Virus record (IMG/VR): IMGVR_UViG_2541047893_000008
Strand: one strand, 5' to 3'
Length of the DNA stretch: 38,116 nucleotides
Origin: a virus
Taxonomy: Duplodnaviria > Heunggongvirae > Uroviricota > Caudoviricetes
Shown here piece by piece: positions 5,117 through 11,071 of this stretch. Below the pieces are notes generated by a model. That model had not been told where the DNA came from. It was given only the letters and a program-made list of their open reading frames with translations, and searched no databases. Each line of letters starts with the position of its first letter. Positions within the stretch are counted from its first letter, which is position 1. Made by a program: the position numbers and the translations under genes.

Positions 5117-7939
5117 ATGACGGCAGAGTACATCAGGGACTGGCAACAACCGCGCCACGCAGTGGGGCGTGAAGGAACGGGGATCCCCGCTCCTGAATCC
5201 GCGCTTTCCTCCTGGCTGGATGCCTACCGGGTAGAGAACGAGCACCGCCAGGAAATGGCTGATGCGGCGTTCTCCGCAACGCCGCTGGGCAACCTGATTA
5301 ATAAAAGCCTGAACGCACAGGAAAAACAGGACAAAACCATCACACTGGCAGGAGATGCCAGAAAACAGGCACGCGGCGCGGTGGATGAAGCCATGGCCTC
5401 GCTGCGCCTGCTGCCGTCCTATCTGCGCGATCCGCTTATTCGCCACCTCTCCTTCCTGCGCAAAAAACAGGAAGCCGATCGTCAGAAAGGCAAAAAGAGC
5501 TGGCAGGCTGAACGCTACGCGCGCGGAAACCTGCGCAAAATATTCGAACGTCTGGATCGCACCGATCACCGCTGGCTGACACAGGGTTATCGCTCCCTTG
5601 CCGGACGCGAACGCCTGGACGATTTGCTTTACCTGCCGCAGCTCAACAAACACCAGATACAGACACTGGCCACCATGACGGCGGCGATGTTCAGCAGCAC
5701 CTTCGAAAAACTCTGCGATGGCTTTGGCGCGACCGATGGCGAACTGACCATGGATGTAACGCTGAAGGCGTATCAGATGCTGGCCCGCATGGCGTTACAC
5801 CTGCACGCCATGCCTCCACATTATGACGCACTGACAACAGACAAAGACCGGAGGAACGAACCGGACACGGAGCTGCTGCCGGGCGCAATCCTTCGCCTGA
5901 CCTGTGCAGAATGGTGGAAACGCAAACTGTGGCTGTTACGTTGCGAGTGGAGAGAAGAACAACTCCGCGCCGCCTGTCTGGTTTCCAGAAAAACATCGCC
6001 CTATCTGAGCCAGGACGCGTTAAGCGAGTTTCGCGCACAGCGCGAGAAAACACGCGATTTCCTGAAAAGTTTCATGCTGGAAAATGAAGACGGGTTCACG
6101 ATTGATCTCGAGACGGTGTATTACGCGGGAGTAAGTAACCCGGTTCACCGTAAGGCAGAAATGATGGCCACCATGAAGGGGCTGGAACTTCTGGCCGAAG
6201 CCCGTGGCGACAAAGCGGTGTTTCTGACTGTCACCTGCCCGTCAAAATACCACGCCACAACAGAGAACGGTCATCCGAATCCCAAATGGAACGGGGCCAC
6301 CATGCGCGACTCCAGCGATTACCTGGTTAACACGTTTTTTGCGGCGGTCCGCAAAAAACTGAACCGCGACGGTCTTCGCTGGTATGGCATCCGCACGGTG
6401 GAGCCTCACCATGACGGCACCGTGCACTGGCATATGATGGTCTTTGCGCATCCGGAAGAAATCGACAGCATCGTGGCCATCACCCGCGATATTGCCATTC
6501 AGGAAGACCGCCACGAGCTGGGCAATGATATTACTCCGCGCTTTAAGGCGGAGTATGTCGACGGCTCAAAAGGCACACCAACCAGCTATATCGCGACCTA
6601 CATCGGAAAGAACCTGGACAGCCGCGCCGTGGATGGCATCGACCCGAAAACGGGCAAGCCACGCGTTGACCACGAAACCGGAAAATCAATGGCCGAGAGT
6701 GTGGAGCGCGCCATCGGCTGGGCGCGCCTTCATCGGGTCCGCCAGTTCCAGTTCTTTGGCATCCCCTCCCGTCAGGTGTGGCGTGAACTGCGCCGCCTTG
6801 CCAGCCAGATGGCACGCAACCCGGAAGGCCCGCAACGACTGAAAGATGACGCAATGGATGCGGTACTCGCTGCCGCCGATGCCGGGTGTTTTGCCACCTA
6901 CATTGAAAAACAGGGCGGCGTACTTGTTCCACGCAAAGACTACCTGATTCGCACCGCCTACGACCTCGCAGATGAGCTGAATGATTACGGCGAACAGAGC
7001 GTACAGATTTACGGGATCTGGTCACCACTCATCGGGGAATCCTCCCGTGTGTGCACGCATCCGGATAACTGGAAACTGGTAAGACGTAAACCGGAAACGG
7101 AAGACAGCGCCCGCGAAAATGGTTTTGACCTTCAGGGCGGCCCTGCCGCCCCTTGGACTCGTGGCAATAACTGTCCCCGTGTACAGGAAACGGACAACAA
7201 CGGGACAGAACAGCCGGAAGAACGGCCAGCACCGTGGCCGCAGCTCCCTGACGGCGTTGAAGTGAACGAATGGATGCGCTCACTGAAACGACACGAACGC
7301 CGGGCGCTGATGCGTTCGCTTCGTGACAAACAGGCAAAAAACAGCAGCGATGAAATGCAGAGCTGGACACAGAGCCGCAAACAGCAGCGGCCTTTGCCTG
7401 ATAACCACGAATTACTCGCTAAAGAATGGCGGGAGTCTGCTGAATCTCTCGGCCTGCATATCGGTGAACAACAGATGCAGCACCTGTTACGGGGCGGCAG
7501 TCTGTACGTTGACGGCAGCATCATTGCACCGCAGGGATTTGAAATTGTACGCAAACCGGATACCCGCCCGGACAGCCGAATCACGCAGCTCTGGCAGCGC
7601 CTGAGCCGTAATCACGGCGTAAGCAGCACGGAGATCCGCCATAACCCGGTCTCCAGCTATCTGGCACAGCTCGGGGCATCAGACCCCGAAGCCGCCGCAC
7701 GCCTGGCATCCACACTTCAGCAGGTCCAGAACACCATGAAAACACCCGTTACCGTGCTTTCTGACATGCTGCGCGCCATTCGTGACGCAGAGCACGCACA
7801 GAGAATCAGAGAAACCACTGAACGCGCCCGCCGCAAAGCAAACCTGCTGAGGACTGGCCTGACCAGTGGAAACAAAAAACAGACAGAAACGGGATTCACA
7901 AATCCCGTAAATGAGCAAAAAACGCGCCGCGATATATGA
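5117..7939 (+). CDS. A: Rolling-circle replication initiation endonuclease (P2 gpA family)
   Basis: 940-aa ORF with HUH motif (HWHMMVF) and two-tyrosine motif (TSYIATYIGKN); conserved blocks (VFLTVTCPSKYH, GIRTVEPHHDGT) match P2 A. About 180 aa longer than P2 A at the C-terminus. Confidence 0.9.
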   Translation: MTAEYIRDWQQPRHAVGREGTGIPAPESALSSWLDAYRVENEHRQEMADAAFSATPLGNLINKSLNAQEKQDKTITLAGDARKQARGAVDEAMASLRLLPSYLRDPLIRHLSFLRKKQEADRQKGKKSWQAERYARGNLRKIFERLDRTDHRWLTQGYRSLAGRERLDDLLYLPQLNKHQIQTLATMTAAMFSSTFEKLCDGFGATDGELTMDVTLKAYQMLARMALHLHAMPPHYDALTTDKDRRNEPDTELLPGAILRLTCAEWWKRKLWLLRCEWREEQLRAACLVSRKTSPYLSQDALSEFRAQREKTRDFLKSFMLENEDGFTIDLETVYYAGVSNPVHRKAEMMATMKGLELLAEARGDKAVFLTVTCPSKYHATTENGHPNPKWNGATMRDSSDYLVNTFFAAVRKKLNRDGLRWYGIRTVEPHHDGTVHWHMMVFAHPEEIDSIVAITRDIAIQEDRHELGNDITPRFKAEYVDGSKGTPTSYIATYIGKNLDSRAVDGIDPKTGKPRVDHETGKSMAESVERAIGWARLHRVRQFQFFGIPSRQVWRELRRLASQMARNPEGPQRLKDDAMDAVLAAADAGCFATYIEKQGGVLVPRKDYLIRTAYDLADELNDYGEQSVQIYGIWSPLIGESSRVCTHPDNWKLVRRKPETEDSARENGFDLQGGPAAPWTRGNNCPRVQETDNNGTEQPEERPAPWPQLPDGVEVNEWMRSLKRHERRALMRSLRDKQAKNSSDEMQSWTQSRKQQRPLPDNHELLAKEWRESAESLGLHIGEQQMQHLLRGGSLYVDGSIIAPQGFEIVRKPDTRPDSRITQLWQRLSRNHGVSSTEIRHNPVSSYLAQLGASDPEAAARLASTLQQVQNTMKTPVTVLSDMLRAIRDAEHAQRIRETTERARRKANLLRTGLTSGNKKQTETGFTNPVNEQKTRRDI

Positions 7940-7980
7940 AGCGCGCACAAAACAGGCGAAAGCGGGATTTAAAAATCCCG
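7890..7980. repeat. Two near-identical 18-bp palindromes (cgggattCACAAatcccg at 7890-7907; cgggatttAAAAatcccg at 7963-7980) flanking the A stop codon, upstream of parM
   Basis: Seen in sequence: one copy inside the last codons of A, the other 36 bp upstream of the parM start. Candidate ParR operator/centromere-like site, terminator or ori-associated structure. Confidence 0.5.
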
Positions 7981-8015
7981 TAAACGGTTAATTAACCAAC
8001 ATAAGGAAAATCGAC

Positions 8016-8975
8016 ATGAAAATTTGTATCGACGACGGCTCCACCAACATCAAGCTGGCATGGACTGAGAATGGCGAACGCCGCAACGCCATCAGCCCGA
8101 ACAGCTTCAAGTCGGAATGGTCTGCGCCGTTCGGTGGCATGCAGCCCGCGAACTACATGCTTGATGGCGTGCGCTATGGTTTTGATCCGGTCAGCGATCG
8201 CTTTGTCCAGACGACCGACACGCAATACCAGTACAGCGATGTGAATGTAATCGCCATTCATCACGCGCTGGTCAAATCAGGCATCACGCCACAAGAGGTG
8301 GATGTGGTTGTCACCCTGCCACTGAGCGAGTATTTCGAGACAAACGCACAGCCGGACATGGCCAACATCAACCGCAAAAAAGCGAACGTTATGCGCTCGG
8401 TGGAGTACCAGAACGGCGAAGCATTCACTATCCGTAACGTGCGGGTTATGCCTGAATCCATTCCGGCTGGCTTTAAAGCACTGGCTGACATGAGTCCGTT
8501 TGAATCCCTGCTGATTGTGGATTTAGGCGGAACCACGCTGGATGTGGCAAAGGTTCAAGGGCAACTGGCAGGTATCAGCCAGGTGTTTTGCGATCCACAC
8601 GTAGGCGTTTCCCTGATGGCCGATGCCGTACTGTCGGTGATGGCCACTAACGGTATGCGCACCAGTCACCACATCGCCAATACCATTATCGAACATCGCC
8701 ATGATGAAGCCTGGCTGCGCCAGCACATCCACAATGACGCGCATTACGCCAGCCTGATGGCGGTTATTCGTGAAAAGGAAGAAACACTGAAACAACGCGT
8801 GATCCGCGCGCTGGCGGTTTTTTCGGGTTACGGGCGGGTGATGGTTGTCGGTGGAGGGGCGGAGATTGTGGCACCCGCTATCCGCGAAGTCTGCGGAGTT
8901 AATGCGACTTTCATCGCGGACGGGGTGCCACAGTTTGCTCTGGTTAATGGGCTGTACGCAATGGACAAGGAGTAA
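8016..8975 (+). CDS. parM: ParM/StbA-like actin-fold partition ATPase
   Basis: 319-aa ORF with actin-fold signatures: phosphate-1 (IDDGSTNIKL), phosphate-2 (IVDLGGTTLDV), adenosine motif (VVGGGAEIV). N-terminus resembles plasmid R1 ParM from memory (MLVFIDDGSTNIKLQW...). RBS AAGGA. Confidence 0.88.
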   Translation: MKICIDDGSTNIKLAWTENGERRNAISPNSFKSEWSAPFGGMQPANYMLDGVRYGFDPVSDRFVQTTDTQYQYSDVNVIAIHHALVKSGITPQEVDVVVTLPLSEYFETNAQPDMANINRKKANVMRSVEYQNGEAFTIRNVRVMPESIPAGFKALADMSPFESLLIVDLGGTTLDVAKVQGQLAGISQVFCDPHVGVSLMADAVLSVMATNGMRTSHHIANTIIEHRHDEAWLRQHIHNDAHYASLMAVIREKEETLKQRVIRALAVFSGYGRVMVVGGGAEIVAPAIREVCGVNATFIADGVPQFALVNGLYAMDKE

Positions 8976-8979
8976 ACCA

Positions 8980-9294
8980 ATGACGACACCAACCAGACGG
9001 ATAAGTTTCTATCTGAAGCCCGCCGCCGTCAAGAGTGAACAGGAGGCGTGCAATTACCTCGATAGCCTGCCAGCCTCCGAACGCAGCCGCGCGCAACGCG
9101 CGGCCTTTCTGGCTGGGCTAGCGCTCATAAAGCGCAACCCAGCATTTGCCTACTGGATGGCCGAATGGCCAGAGGACAACCTCCCCTTCAATACCGTTAG
9201 CATCAAGGAAACATACCAGGATAATCAGCCTAGCGGAGTTGAATGCAATTTTTATAAAATTGCAAAGAATATTCAGACCTTATTCCCAGAATAA
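8980..9294 (+). CDS. parR: ParR/StbB-like small DNA-binding partner (putative ribbon-helix-helix)
   Basis: Small ORF immediately downstream of parM (start 5 nt after the parM stop, RBS AAGGAG). N-terminus RRISFYLKP followed by two helices (EQEACNYLDSL; SERSRAQRAAFLAGLAL) fits the RHH pattern of type II partition adaptors. Assignment is inference from context and pattern. Confidence 0.65.
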   Translation: MTTPTRRISFYLKPAAVKSEQEACNYLDSLPASERSRAQRAAFLAGLALIKRNPAFAYWMAEWPEDNLPFNTVSIKETYQDNQPSGVECNFYKIAKNIQTLFPE

Positions 9295-9377: not shown

Positions 9378-10214
9378 TCATGATGAAATTGCCGAAGTTT
9401 TTTTATCGTGCTGAAGTACCGCAAATGCCATTAAAACCTCAAGAGAATAGCGGCGATAATACTTAACAAAACCATAATAAAATACTCGGGATGCAGCAAT
9501 ACAAAACAAGAGAAGAAAACAAAAAGGTAACAGTCTGATATTTATATCTATTAAAAAGGATAGAAGGAGCAGGAACATAAGCAACCAGACTGAAGCGAGA
9601 AAAACAAATGTAATGTTTCTACAAAAACCATACAAAGCAACATAGTTTTGCATTTTCACCTGATGATTTTTAGAATGTTCATACACATAATGATAAGCAA
9701 GGCGAAAAAGATCGCCCCTCAAGCCCTTACGTCGATATAGCGTAGATAAAACATTTATATAACCATCTCGTATTTGCGGCCAAAAGACTTTAATAAGTAT
9801 AGAATGCAGTGTGGTTTTATGATGTTCTGCTTTATCAAAAGCTGATACAGGAAATAAAAAAACTCCACGAATAAAATTAACTATACTGAACTTAGTATTA
9901 TGTCGTTTTATTTTCAGGGAGCTTCTTTTAGAAAACAGATAAATTGAAGGATACCCAAGTTTACTGTTCATGTATTTTTCAATTAAACAGGATGATAGAA
10001 TAGATATGAAGTGACCTGAAATATATGATAGAACGATTAATACCACATATATAAATACACTTATTATTTCTTTATATTTCAGGATATGGTTAAGAATACC
10101 TTCTATATAAACAGGGTTAATTTCAATAGAAAACAAAAAAAGGATAAACAGGAATAACCCACCTGGAATTAGATAGCCCAAAAAGTCATAAAATGAAAAC
10201 GGATTCTGTGTCAC
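9378..10214 (-). CDS. Polytopic membrane protein of unknown function (278 aa), AT-rich cargo gene
   Basis: Several long hydrophobic segments; codon composition much more AT-rich than the phage backbone; second gene of a two-gene leftward operon; RBS GGGGGAAG. Confidence 0.7.
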   Translation of the reverse strand: MTQNPFSFYDFLGYLIPGGLFLFILFLFSIEINPVYIEGILNHILKYKEIISVFIYVVLIVLSYISGHFISILSSCLIEKYMNSKLGYPSIYLFSKRSSLKIKRHNTKFSIVNFIRGVFLFPVSAFDKAEHHKTTLHSILIKVFWPQIRDGYINVLSTLYRRKGLRGDLFRLAYHYVYEHSKNHQVKMQNYVALYGFCRNITFVFLASVWLLMFLLLLSFLIDINIRLLPFCFLLLFCIAASRVFYYGFVKYYRRYSLEVLMAFAVLQHDKKTSAISS

Positions 10215-10253
10215 ACTTCCCCCTGTGTTACTTGTAAATTAAAGGGTAAAACA

Positions 10254-10751
10254 TTATTTGTTTTTCCGTAAAGGATTAGCTTTCCATCTTCTTACTAACC
10301 ATTCGAATTCTTGATATGTAGTATCCGAATTAATGCTTTCTCTGATTGCTTTAATTAATGGCTCGGCAATATCATATGTCTCTACAACTGTTGTGTAAGA
10401 TGTTCTTTTTATCATTTTTTCATCATAAATACCTTCACGAATACTTACAGCAACTCGCTCGTAAAAATTTAAAATATATTGAAATTTTCGGCGCTCGGCC
10501 ATTTCTTCATCTGTTATTATGCAACCATCACAAGGAAAAACATAAGAACGAAATGATTTGCCTGAACGATGCACTTGTTTCAGGGTATGCAATGACTCTA
10601 TATATTGCATATCTTGCCGACTCTCAAAAAGAAAGTTGGCCGTTTGAGTTTTTTTTGCGGTACGCACATTGTAGATAATGGTTCCAATGGCAACCAAAAC
10701 GCCAAGCAGAACAATAGTATTGCTGATGATTTGTAGTGTTATTGGGTTCAT
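10254..10751 (-). CDS. N-terminally membrane-anchored protein of unknown function (165 aa), AT-rich cargo gene
   Basis: Single N-terminal TM helix (ITLQIISNTIVLLGVLVAIGTIIY) followed by a charged soluble domain; first gene of the two-gene module; no family recognised. Confidence 0.7.
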   Translation of the reverse strand: MNPITLQIISNTIVLLGVLVAIGTIIYNVRTAKKTQTANFLFESRQDMQYIESLHTLKQVHRSGKSFRSYVFPCDGCIITDEEMAERRKFQYILNFYERVAVSIREGIYDEKMIKRTSYTTVVETYDIAEPLIKAIRESINSDTTYQEFEWLVRRWKANPLRKNK

Positions 10752-10771: not shown

Positions 10772-10792
10772 GGCGGGGAGCAAATCCCCGCC
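10772..10792 (-). terminator. Rho-independent terminator-like hairpin (ggcgggga-gcaaa-tccccgcc) with a U-run on the minus strand, 14 nt upstream of the cargo-module start codon
   Basis: GC-rich 8-bp stem, 5-nt loop, followed on the minus strand by a T7 run. Oriented to stop leftward transcription coming from the Q-P operon. Confidence 0.6.
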
Positions 10793-10948
10793 TCATTAGA
10801 GGTCAACGTAGCTTAGAAACCATCAAATTCATCATACATTTTATTCATATCAACCCCCTCATAGAAATCATAACCACGTTTTGTGGTTTTTGTGACGTAT
10901 AAACTACATCAAAGGCAAGCCACGGTCAAATATATAGGCATGCTTACC

Positions 10949-10975
10949 TGCACAAAAGTGCACAAATTTGCACAA
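10949..10975. repeat. Three helically phased direct repeats (TGCACAA every 10 bp) in the cos region
   Basis: TGCACAAAAG TGCACAAATT TGCACAATTT seen directly; resembles a phased protein-binding array (terminase or host-factor site). Confidence 0.4.
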
Positions 10976-11071
10976 TTTTTTTGAACGACTTTTTACCCTT
11001 CCGGCCCGCATGGCGGCTGGATCCGTCAAGGATCCGTGCGTGCACAAAAAAACGCGCTTTTTCTGCGCGCA

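What the first reader, a model, noticed from the sequence alone, without database searches (positions are those of the whole stretch)
7890..7980. Paired 18-bp palindromes straddling the end of gene A and the parM promoter region
cgggattCACAAatcccg (inside the last codons of A) and cgggatttAAAAatcccg (36 bp upstream of parM) are near-identical inverted repeats 73 bp apart. They could be ParR binding sites (centromere/operator), stacked terminators for the early operon, or part of the replication-origin region, which in P2 lies in the 3-prime part of A.
Basis: seen in the sequence. Interest (0 to 1): 0.5.

Follow-up and report, generated by a model that had tools for sequence, protein, structure and literature searches.

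The report
Probable centromere of prophage ParMR cassette
The two 18-bp palindromes are real and are most likely the DNA sites (parC) where the ParR adaptor of a plasmid-type, actin-like partition cassette carried by this P2-family E. coli prophage binds; they are not terminators or a replication origin, which makes this a sensible but previously undescribed variant of a well-known system.

Summary
Observation confirmed: CGGGATTCACAAATCCCG (7890-7907) and CGGGATTTAAAAATCCCG (7963-7980) lie 73 bp apart and are the only such sites in 38 kb. Each sits inside a longer 39-nt direct repeat (7873-7911 and 7946-7984).

The window is a P88-like (Xuanwuvirus, P2-family) prophage: gene A (5117-7939), parM (8016-8975), parR (8980-9294).

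The sites belong to the parMR cassette, not to gene A. A relative with the same gpA but no parMR has no palindromes. Three relatives with different upstream genes start matching the window at 7872-7875, where block 1 begins.

In four lineages sharing the ParR strand TRR(I/V)SFYL (E. coli, two Hafnia, Plesiomonas; ParM down to 62% identity), exactly two GGG-N10-CCC boxes lie 72-73 bp apart, ending 34-42 nt before parM. The upstream gene, its reading frame and its stop position all differ. Clades with other ParR strands carry other repeats.

The half-site (A/T run plus CCC) resembles R1 parC iterons, and the region has the strongest helical A-tract phasing in the window.

Best reading (about 0.62): a compact parC centromere/operator. 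Nothing has been tested by binding. Single arm mismatches are common, and no clear promoter was found. The terminator and origin readings are not supported.

The parts
7873..7911 (.). Repeat block 1: a 17-nt A-rich leader, box P1, then TAAA. This is the left edge of the mobile parMR cassette.
   Evidence: 39-nt direct repeat. Homology of L069, L048 and L126 to the window starts at 7872, 7874 and about 7875 despite different upstream genes. Positions 7875-7885 are invariant in 68 unique relatives.
7890..7907 (.). Box P1, CGGGATT-CACA-AATCCCG, proposed to bind two ParR dimers. It overlaps gpA codons 925-930.
   Evidence: Conserved in Hafnia L222, where the gpA stop codon lies in its centre and in another frame.
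7912..7945 (.). 34-bp GC-rich core between the blocks. It holds the gpA stop codon (7937-7939) and corresponds in position to the 39-bp promoter core of R1 parC.
   Evidence: polymorphic; R1 layout. One insertion and one deletion cancel between E. coli and Hafnia, keeping the 73-bp spacing.
7946..7984 (.). Repeat block 2: A-rich leader, box P2, then TAAA.
7963..7980 (.). Box P2, CGGGATT-TAAA-AATCCCG. Arms are conserved and the centre is variable (TAAA, TCAG, TGAA, CCAG).
   Evidence: (arm pi 0.035 versus centre 0.26).
7986..7997 (.). Third palindrome, GGTTAATTAACC (GATTAATTAATC in most relatives), between P2 and the ribosome-binding site. It may be the -10 region or an operator; its role is unknown.
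   Evidence: partner positions 7987/7996 give haplotypes A..T, G..C and G..T, never A..C. The ATTAAT core is conserved in Hafnia and Plesiomonas.
8016..8975 (+). parM, the actin-like segregation ATPase.
   Evidence: Pfam StbA_N and ParM C-terminal domain. Strong purifying selection: pi at codon positions 1/2/3 is 0.005/0.003/0.054.
8980..9294 (+). parR, a ribbon-helix-helix adaptor of 104 aa. The N-terminal strand TRRISFYLKP is invariant and the C-terminal half is hypervariable.
   Evidence: Pfam Plasmid_stab_B. P88 annotation. Variants. N-terminus matches the pB171 ParR structure 2JD3 at E 0.012.
5117..7939 (+). Gene A (replication endonuclease). Its last ~22 codons (from about 7874) are read from cassette DNA and are not part of the conserved gpA.
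   Evidence: L128 gpA ends differently after 7839. In L126 a different 155-aa ORF ends with the same tail.

Best explanation
The two palindromes are the core boxes of the cis-acting centromere/operator (parC) of a type II (ParM/ParR) partition cassette carried by this P88-like, P2-family prophage. The cassette runs from 7873 to about 9294 and has this layout: block 1, a 34-bp core, block 2, a small AT-rich palindrome, the RBS, parM, parR. Proposed mechanism: each 18-bp box offers two inverted half-sites (GGGATT / AATCCC, centres about 10 bp apart), and each half-site is read by the beta-sheet of one ParR ribbon-helix-helix dimer. The two boxes are 7 helical turns apart on intrinsically curved, A-tract-phased DNA, so four or more dimers would assemble cooperatively into one partition complex. 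That complex would capture ParM filament ends and move phage DNA circles, either replicating or excised. Because box 2 lies just upstream of parM, it would probably also repress parMR. SHOWN: the sites exist; they belong to the cassette; the GGG/CCC ends and the 72-73-bp spacing are conserved as DNA across diverged lineages; they are restricted to one ParR clade; the half-site resembles R1 iterons; parM is under purifying selection. INFERRED: ParR binding, its stoichiometry, autoregulation, and what the phage gains from partition.
For: 1. Linkage to parMR, not to gene A. L128 has the same gpA up to 7839 but no parMR and no palindromes. L126, L069 and L048 have other upstream genes, yet their homology starts at about 7875, 7872 and 7874, the start of block 1.
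2. By elimination. parM is strongly constrained (pi 0.005/0.003/0.054 by codon position), so the cassette is in use and needs a centromere. The only cassette DNA outside the two genes that is shared across contexts is 7873-8015; the right-hand homology ends inside parR.
3. Deep conservation at the DNA level. Exactly two GGG-N10-CCC boxes, 73/73/73/72 bp apart and ending 35/34/38/42 nt before the ATG, are found in E. coli, Hafnia L222, Hafnia L223 and Plesiomonas L225. The upstream gene differs (gpA or a 167-aa ORF), as does the frame; the stop codon lies in the centre of box 1 in L222 and inside box 2 in L223.
4. Constraint on the arms. Between E. coli and L222 the 24 arm bases are identical, while parM 4-fold sites differ by 35% and the rest of the region by 26% (Fisher p = 0.0016).
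5. Clade specificity. Boxes occur only with the ParR strand TRR(I/V)SFYL. NRKISFYL-type phages (L226, L227, L228) instead carry GGGAACGA...AGAAAAAT inverted repeats that share TTTTTCTAT with plasmid L138 iterons.
6. Similarity to a proven parC. R1 iterons are an A-run plus CCC (L136:730-894), arranged as two repeat sets flanking a core, with about one ParR dimer per iteron and curved DNA (PMC2241845). The nearest plasmid relatives have two blocks 72-73 bp apart.
7. A-tract phasing. The 140-bp window at 7861 ranks first of about 3,800 windows. Each half alone is at the 98-99.7th percentile, and the halves are in phase at 10.4 bp.
8. [quoted passage not shown]
Against: There are no binding or stabilisation data for this system. 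There are only four clear half-sites, against ten iterons in R1. Within E. coli phages the arms are about as polymorphic as synonymous sites (pi 0.047 and 0.035 versus 0.054). P1 is imperfect in 31 and P2 in 20 of 68 unique sequences, and only 31 of 68 keep both perfect. So perfect dyad symmetry is not required, and the constraint is visible only in the deeper comparison. No consensus sigma-70 promoter lies between or beside the boxes, so the operator role is speculative and parMR may simply be read through from the early operon. ParR's reading strand is identical in lineages whose box interiors differ (GGGATT versus GGGACA or GGGTTT), so only the GGG(A/T) core can be claimed as the determinant. 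The four lineages share ancestry, so their agreement shows conservation, not independent recurrence. L127 keeps intact parMR without either box, but it is a deleted prophage remnant.
Confidence: 0.62

Rival explanations
1. The sites are a non-functional relic: a duplicated junction or 'linker' sequence left by the recombination that placed the parMR module behind gene A.
For: The repeat sits exactly at the cassette's left boundary. The similarity covers 39 nt rather than only the palindromes. Arm diversity within E. coli phages is close to the synonymous rate, and 37 of 68 unique sequences carry at least one imperfect box.
Against: The arms are 24/24 identical between E. coli and Hafnia L222, against 35% divergence at 4-fold sites. 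The two-box layout and the 72-73-bp spacing persist down to 62% ParM identity while the box interiors and spacers change. An insertion and a deletion in the core cancel out. Both halves show unusual A-tract phasing.
Confidence: 0.1
2. The sites act as RNA hairpins on the + strand mRNA, for example as a 3' stabiliser or processing site for the gene A message, or as a 5' stabiliser or translational element for parM.
For: Both form stable hairpins: -10.7 kcal/mol for P1, and -13.6 kcal/mol for the P2-containing 40-nt segment, which also includes the small P3 stem-loop (z about -3.2 and -3.6). They bracket the end of gene A and the parM leader.
Against: Arm mutations are never compensated in about 190 loci. 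In Plesiomonas the box folds only as a 4-bp stem with a 10-nt loop (-4.9 kcal/mol), while the box ends and spacing are kept. No Rfam family matches.
Confidence: 0.08
3. The sites are minus-strand intrinsic terminators that insulate gene A from antisense transcription entering from the cargo and late-gene side.
For: On the - strand P1 is followed by UUUCUGUCUGUUUUUUG and is flagged as terminator-like. P2 is followed by a moderately U-rich stretch.
Against: P2 is not flagged by the scan. A canonical - strand terminator already lies at about 10772-10800 (GGCGGGGA-TTTGC-TCCCCGCC followed by TTTTTTAT; sequence). The sites move with parMR and lie upstream of it, so they would not protect parMR itself. 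The Plesiomonas box has no hairpin or U-run on the - strand (z +0.8). No compensatory changes are seen.
Confidence: 0.05
4. The sites bind a protein other than ParR, such as a host nucleoid protein or a phage regulator like C, Cox or Ogr.
For: Dyad-symmetric 18-mers are generic protein sites. No binding data exist. P3 (7986-7997) shows that other symmetric elements are present.
Against: The boxes co-occur only with one ParR clade, across phages with different gpA alleles and different upstream genes. ParR is the only DNA-binding protein encoded in the cassette.
Confidence: 0.08
5. The sites are part of the P2-type replication origin or a gpA recognition site in the 3' part of gene A.
For: From general knowledge, the P2 origin lies inside gene A. 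P1 lies within the gpA ORF.
Against: L128 has the same gpA up to 7839, ends ...DKGNSEKKK*, and has no palindromes. L048 has a divergent gpA with the same boxes. In L223 a different gene precedes the boxes. P2 lies outside gene A.
Confidence: 0.02

Closest known systems
parC of plasmid R1 (type II ParMRC partition locus)
   Same: It lies immediately upstream of parM-parR. The adaptor belongs to the same family (Pfam PF10784; its N-terminus aligns to R1 ParR: RRTIAFKLNP versus TRRISFYLKP). Two repeat blocks flank a central core. The half-site is an A/T run plus CCC, as in R1 iterons AAACCC, CAACCC and ATACCC. The DNA is curved or A-tract-phased.
   Different: R1 has 2 x 5 direct 11-bp iterons, a 39-bp core with a clear promoter, 159 bp in total, and 94-bp block spacing. 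Here there are 2 x 1 inverted pairs (18-bp boxes) with A-rich leaders, a 34-bp core, 73-bp spacing and about 112 bp in total. No consensus promoter was found. Block 1 overlaps the coding end of the upstream gene. The host replicon is an integrating phage.
srpMRC / srpC of SXT/R391 integrative conjugative elements
   Same: This is a type II partition system on an element that normally sits in the chromosome. Its centromere consists of only four short repeats in direct and inverted orientation upstream of the actin-like gene, and pairs of repeats are needed for stable binding (PMC4489591).
   Different: SrpR has no recognisable similarity to ParR. Its repeats are 13 bp with a different sequence and layout. 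srpC was verified by EMSA and stabilisation assays, whereas nothing has been tested here.
AlpAC / alpS of Corynebacterium glutamicum prophage CGP3
   Same: A prophage-encoded actin-like protein works with a DNA-binding adaptor that recognises specific sites, and is proposed to move or support replicating viral DNA (PMC5539076 abstract).
   Different: The proteins and host phylum are unrelated. The alpS sites were not compared here.
Two-block repeat regions upstream of parM in plasmid relatives (Citrobacter pRHBSTW-00126_2, Serratia pSL267)
   Same: These are the nearest plasmid ParM relatives (51% identity). They have two repeat blocks 72-73 bp apart directly upstream of parM, and in L137 the blocks flank a TTGATA-17-TATAAT promoter.
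   Different: Their repeats are T-rich direct iterons (GTTCTCTAA, TTTTTCTAT), and they have no GGG-N10-CCC boxes.

Membership tests
parC centromere/operator of a type II (ParM/ParR) partition locus | Lies next to (typically upstream of) a parM-parR gene pair and moves with it | tested here: met
   ParM and ParR are confirmed by Pfam. The boxes lie 35-126 nt upstream of parM. The cassette boundary is at 7872-7875 in three different contexts, and the boxes are absent when parMR is absent.
parC centromere/operator of a type II (ParM/ParR) partition locus | Multiple repeated sequence units (iterons), often in two clusters | tested here: met
   Two 39-nt blocks each contain an 18-bp box, giving four half-sites. 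This is a variant form: inverted pairs, and far fewer units than R1's ten.
parC centromere/operator of a type II (ParM/ParR) partition locus | Repeat type co-varies with the cognate ParR | tested here: met
   GGG-N10-CCC boxes occur only with the ParR strand TRR(I/V)SFYL (4 lineages). NRKISFYL phages and plasmid ParRs carry other repeats. The sample is small, at 9 lineages.
parC centromere/operator of a type II (ParM/ParR) partition locus | Specific, cooperative binding by ParR | not testable with these tools
   Needs EMSA, footprinting or ChIP.
parC centromere/operator of a type II (ParM/ParR) partition locus | Contains or overlaps the par promoter and mediates autoregulation | tested here: inconclusive
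   The consensus scan finds no sigma-70 promoter in 7800-8015. Only weak candidates exist (TTTAAA-17-ATTAAC overlapping P2). The ATTAAT motif is conserved downstream of box 2.
parC centromere/operator of a type II (ParM/ParR) partition locus | Acts in cis to stabilise a replicon and exerts incompatibility | not testable with these tools
   Needs a plasmid-loss assay.
parC centromere/operator of a type II (ParM/ParR) partition locus | Intrinsically curved DNA (described for R1) | tested here: met
   Tested by proxy only. AA/TT helical phasing ranks first of about 3,800 windows, each half is at the 98-99.7th percentile, and the R1 control is similar.
Rho-independent (intrinsic) terminator | GC-rich hairpin immediately followed by a U-run on the transcribed strand | tested here: not met
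   On the + strand the hairpins are followed by UAAAUGAGC and UAAACGGUU, and the scan reports none there. On the - strand only P1 qualifies.
Rho-independent (intrinsic) terminator | Stem pairing maintained in relatives (compensatory changes) | tested here: not met
   Single-arm mutations are never compensated. The Plesiomonas homologue has a 4-bp stem with a 10-nt loop.
P2-type origin of replication within gene A | Present wherever the cognate gpA is present | tested here: not met
   L128 has the same gpA without the palindromes. The same boxes occur with a divergent gpA (L048) or behind a different gene (L223).
Dispersed palindromic repeat (REP/MITE-like) | Many copies in unrelated contexts | tested here: not met
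   There are only two copies in the window. All 120 viral contigs with an exact match show the same gene A/parM context.

The most novel reading that the evidence does not exclude
P2-family prophages, including one found in about a quarter of complete E. coli genomes, may carry a working, minimal actin-type centromere made of just two GGG-N10-CCC boxes seven helical turns apart and fused onto the 3' end of the replication-initiator gene. It would be used to position or segregate rolling-circle-replicating or excised phage genomes, not plasmids. ParR bound at the end of gene A might also couple early-operon read-through, replication and partition.
Probability: 0.2. Interest if true: 0.55.

Novelty: new variant of a known kind. 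Interest (0 to 1): 0.36.

Why it matters
If confirmed, this defines the missing cis site of a ParMR system present in 1,371 of 5,426 complete E. coli genomes and in P2-like prophages of Hafnia, Plesiomonas, Serratia and Enterobacter. It would show that an R1-family ParR can work from four inverted half-sites instead of ten direct iterons. It would also provide a compact cassette of about 1.4 kb for asking why an integrating phage keeps a plasmid partition machine. Possible answers include segregating excised circles, positioning replicating genomes, or incompatibility against rival elements. For annotation, the last ~22 codons of 'gpA' in these phages are centromere DNA that happens to be read through, and the 66-bp 'DNA replication protein' pseudogene called in RefSeq (L126) is an artefact of the same effect.

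Tried and rejected
1. Small-protein reading. A 26-codon ORF (ATG 7911 to TAA 7991, MSKKRAAIYEARTKQAKAGFKNPVNG*) spans box 2 and stays open in Hafnia. However, 13 of 26 residues differ against 3 synonymous changes, and 1-nt indels in the A-run occur in some E. coli phages, so it is not protein-constrained.
2. The idea that a conserved GF(T/K)NP peptide tail of gpA explains P1. Rejected, because in L222 and L223 other frames and other genes cover the boxes.
3. Covariation within the P88 lineage. ParR variants at 67%, 56% and 48% identity all keep the same N-terminal strand, so the test carries no information.
4. The P2 nick-site sequence recalled from memory (GCGCCTCGGAGTCCTGTCAA) is absent at up to 3 mismatches. 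This is weak evidence because the sequence was not verified.
5. The genome-contig scan with ParM returned only 3 near-identical loci, and viral scans with the Hafnia and Plesiomonas ParMs added only L228.
6. The long-range RNA fold pairing P1 with P2 (z -4.1) follows trivially from the two sites having the same sequence.
7. The first phasing test was confounded by the 73-bp duplication (73/7 = 10.4), so it was repeated on each half separately.
8. L022 (only P2 present) turned out to be a rearranged prophage with a 2.7-kb insertion in gpA, so it is not informative about a one-box centromere.
9. Literature searches found no description of a P2-like phage parC.
Full report
**1. The observation**

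The window carries CGGGATTCACAAATCCCG at 7890-7907 (P1) and CGGGATTTAAAAATCCCG at 7963-7980 (P2). Each has 7-bp perfect arms around a 4-nt centre, and they are 73 bp apart. No other match exists in 38,116 bp even with two mismatches; the shuffle mean is 0.20. P1 lies in the last codons of a 940-codon ORF (5117-7939) with a Phage_GPA domain. P2 ends 35 nt before a 319-codon ParM gene (8016-8975), which is followed by a Plasmid_stab_B (ParR) gene at 8980-9294.

The similarity is wider than the palindromes. It is a 39-nt direct repeat, 7873-7911 versus 7946-7984, at 82% identity.

**2. What the window is**

It is a P88-like Xuanwuvirus (Peduoviridae, P2 family) prophage with a tyrosine integrase, repressor, gpA, portal and terminase. 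The gene A-parM junction is found at 90% identity or more in 1,371 of 5,426 complete E. coli genomes.

**3. The sites belong to parMR, not to gene A**

- E. coli UTAK-5 (L128) has the same gpA up to window position 7839. That gpA then ends ...DKGNSEKKK* and is followed by other cargo, with no parMR and no palindromes.
- E. coli 2014EL-1345-2 (L126) has a different replication gene plus a 155-aa zinc-ribbon-like ORF upstream. Homology to the window starts at about 7875, and that ORF reads into P1 and ends with the same tail as gpA does here.
- Viral contigs L069 and L048 start matching at 7872 and 7874; L048 has a divergent gpA allele.
- So the cassette's left edge is the start of block 1, and the last ~22 'gpA' codons are cassette DNA.
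- The right-hand homology ends inside parR, at 9125-9176.
- The only cassette DNA outside the two genes that is shared across contexts is therefore 7873-8015.
- parM is under strong purifying selection: pi is 0.005, 0.003 and 0.054 at codon positions 1, 2 and 3. The cassette is in use and should have a centromere, which in type II systems lies next to parM (PMC2241845).

**4. Population-level variation within the E. coli phages**

In 68 unique ParM-selected relatives, the arms are not markedly more conserved than synonymous sites. Pi is 0.047 for the P1 arms and 0.035 for the P2 arms, against 0.054 at parM third positions. Two arm-breaking alleles are common: 7895 T>C in 25 of 68, and 7979 C>T in 16 of 68. 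Only 31 of 68 keep both palindromes perfect, and no change is ever compensated. P2 does show conserved arms with a variable centre (pi 0.035 versus 0.26; centres TAAA, TCAG, TGAA, CCAG). Perfect dyad symmetry and RNA pairing are therefore not under strong selection.

**5. Deeper comparisons**

- *Hafnia L222* (ParM 93% identical). parM 4-fold sites differ from the window by 35%, and the rest of the 7873-8015 region by 26%. All 24 bases of GGGATT/AATCCC x 2 are identical (Fisher p = 0.0016; 3e-5 at the 4-fold rate). The spacing is again exactly 73, with one insertion and one deletion in the core cancelling out. The gpA stop codon lies in the centre of box 1, in a different frame from the window.
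- *Generic frame scan.* Scanning for GGG-N10-CCC finds exactly two boxes within 400 bp upstream of parM in the window, Hafnia L222, Hafnia L223 and Plesiomonas L225 (the last two with ParM 62% identical). The boxes are 73, 73, 73 and 72 bp apart and end 35, 34, 38 and 42 nt before the ATG.
- *Variable box interiors.* Examples are TGGGATTGAGGAAACCCA and CGGGACAACAAAAACCCG. The perfect palindrome is thus a lineage-specific form of a more general box. In L223 the upstream gene is an unrelated 167-aa ORF whose stop lies inside box 2.
- *Shared ParR strand.* These four lineages share the ParR strand TRR(I/V)SFYL.
- *Other clades.* Phages whose ParR begins NRKISFYL (Serratia L226, Enterobacter L227, L228) have no such boxes. 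They carry 14-20-nt inverted repeats (GGGAACGA.A.AGAAAAAT) that share TTTTTCTAT with the iterons of plasmid pSL267, whose ParR is of the related NRKCSFY type. R1 and the other plasmids tested also lack the boxes.

**6. Comparison with a proven centromere**

R1 parC is 159 bp. It has two sets of five 11-bp direct iterons around a 39-bp promoter core, about one ParR dimer per iteron, and strongly curved DNA (PMC2241845). In an R1-type plasmid (L136) the iterons read AAACAAAACCC, AAAAACAACCC, ATACCCAACCC and so on, with the two blocks 94 bp apart.

The phage half-site AAATCCC (GGGATT on the other strand) is of the same type, but the half-sites are arranged head to head. The two nearest plasmid ParM relatives (51% identity) have two repeat blocks 72-73 bp apart.

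AA/TT helical phasing is the strongest in the whole window for the 140 bp starting at 7861 (power 2.21 at 10.4 bp; R1 control 2.62). Because a 73-bp duplication adds power at 73/7, each half was retested alone. Each is still at the 98-99.7th percentile, and the halves are in phase.

The ParR N-terminus aligns to the solved pB171 ParR ribbon-helix-helix domain (2JD3, E 0.012). From general knowledge of RHH proteins (Arc, MetJ, omega, pSK41 ParR), one dimer reads about 5-6 bp in a major groove, and neighbouring dimers sit about one helical turn apart. That fits half-site centres about 10 bp apart within each 18-bp box.

An integrating element with a four-repeat, direct-plus-inverted type II centromere is already documented: srpC of SXT/R391 (PMC4489591).

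**7. Rivals**

- *Plus-strand terminators.* No U-run follows either hairpin.
- *RNA hairpins in general.* There is no compensation, and the hairpin is lost in Plesiomonas (-4.9 kcal/mol) while the box ends and spacing persist. Rfam finds nothing.
- *Minus-strand terminators.* Only P1 qualifies. A canonical minus-strand terminator already lies at about 10772-10800.
- *Origin or gpA site.* Refuted by L128, L048 and L223.
- *Neutral junction relic.* Contradicted by the deep conservation.
- *Small ORF 7911-7991.* It is not protein-constrained.

**8. Verdict**

The most likely identity (about 0.62) is a compact parC-type centromere/operator of the phage's ParMR cassette. ParR binding, stoichiometry, autoregulation and biological role are all inferred. 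No promoter could be assigned. The population data show tolerance of single mismatches.

It is a new architectural variant of a well-known kind of element. It is modestly interesting mainly because of its prevalence and because it sits in an integrating phage, overlapping the end of the replication gene.

Noticed in passing
window 7986-7997: A third palindrome, GGTTAATTAACC, lies 5 nt after P2 and 5 nt before the RBS. Most relatives have GATTAATTAATC. The two variable positions (7987 and 7996) are symmetry partners, with haplotypes A..T 74, G..C 8, G..T 6 and A..C 0 among unique sequences. The ATTAAT core persists in Hafnia and Plesiomonas. It could be a -10 element, an operator or a small leader hairpin.
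   Followed up: partly
window 10940-11060: A cluster of phased TGCACAA(A) repeats (cTGCACAAAAgTGCACAAAtTTGCACAAttttttt ... gTGCACAAAAAAA) lies between the cargo genes and the portal gene. It is the second-strongest AA/TT helical-phasing peak in the window. It may be a cos or terminase-binding region.
   Followed up: no
window 10772-10800 (minus strand): A canonical intrinsic terminator on the minus strand, GGCGGGGA-TTTGC-TCCCCGCC followed by TTTTTTAT. It is placed to stop leftward transcription coming from the portal/cos side before the cargo genes.
   Followed up: no
window 9125-9294 (parR 3' half) and L129, L132, L135: The C-terminal half of ParR is hypervariable among otherwise about 96-98% identical phages (48-69% overall protein identity). 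The N-terminal strand MTTPTRRISFYLKPAAVK and the extreme tail NI..LFPE are invariant. Cassette homology in L069 and L048 breaks inside parR. This looks like allelic replacement or diversifying selection on the linker.
   Followed up: partly
window 9378-10751 (minus strand): The slot between parR and cos/portal holds variable cargo. Here it is a 278-aa ORF (weak PADLOC Csx27 hit, E 1.4e-4, no Pfam) plus a DUF4760 protein. Relatives carry an AAA ATPase plus S8 peptidase (L128), HTH plus PIN (L127), HicAB (L226), a KAP NTPase (L227), an IS (L129), or a ClpX-type zinc-finger ORF (P88). This fits the known P2 cargo/defence hotspot.
   Followed up: partly
window 7316-7872 (gpA C-terminal region): The last ~185 codons of gpA before the cassette are highly polymorphic at all codon positions (pi 0.039, 0.046 and 0.081, against 0.005, 0.003 and 0.054 in parM). 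This suggests relaxed constraint or frequent recombination in the C-terminal extension of this 940-aa gpA.
   Followed up: no
window 7911-7991: A 26-codon ORF overlaps the gpA stop codon and box 2 (MSKKRAAIYEARTKQAKAGFKNPVNG*). It stays open in Hafnia L222, but half its residues differ, so it is probably not a gene.
   Followed up: yes
L126:4000-4065 (E. coli 2014EL-1345-2); L123: RefSeq annotates the 66-bp cassette leader as a 'DNA replication protein' pseudogene fragment, which is an artefact of gpA normally reading into parC. Separately, a contig titled Vagococcus sp. WN89Y carries a 97% identical ParM, which probably reflects contamination or a mislabelled assembly.
   Followed up: no
L127 (E. 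coli EC7518): A prophage remnant that runs int, repressor, cox-like gene, DUF4761, then directly parM-parR. The replication genes and both boxes are deleted, and the junction falls immediately 3' of where P2 would be.
   Followed up: partly
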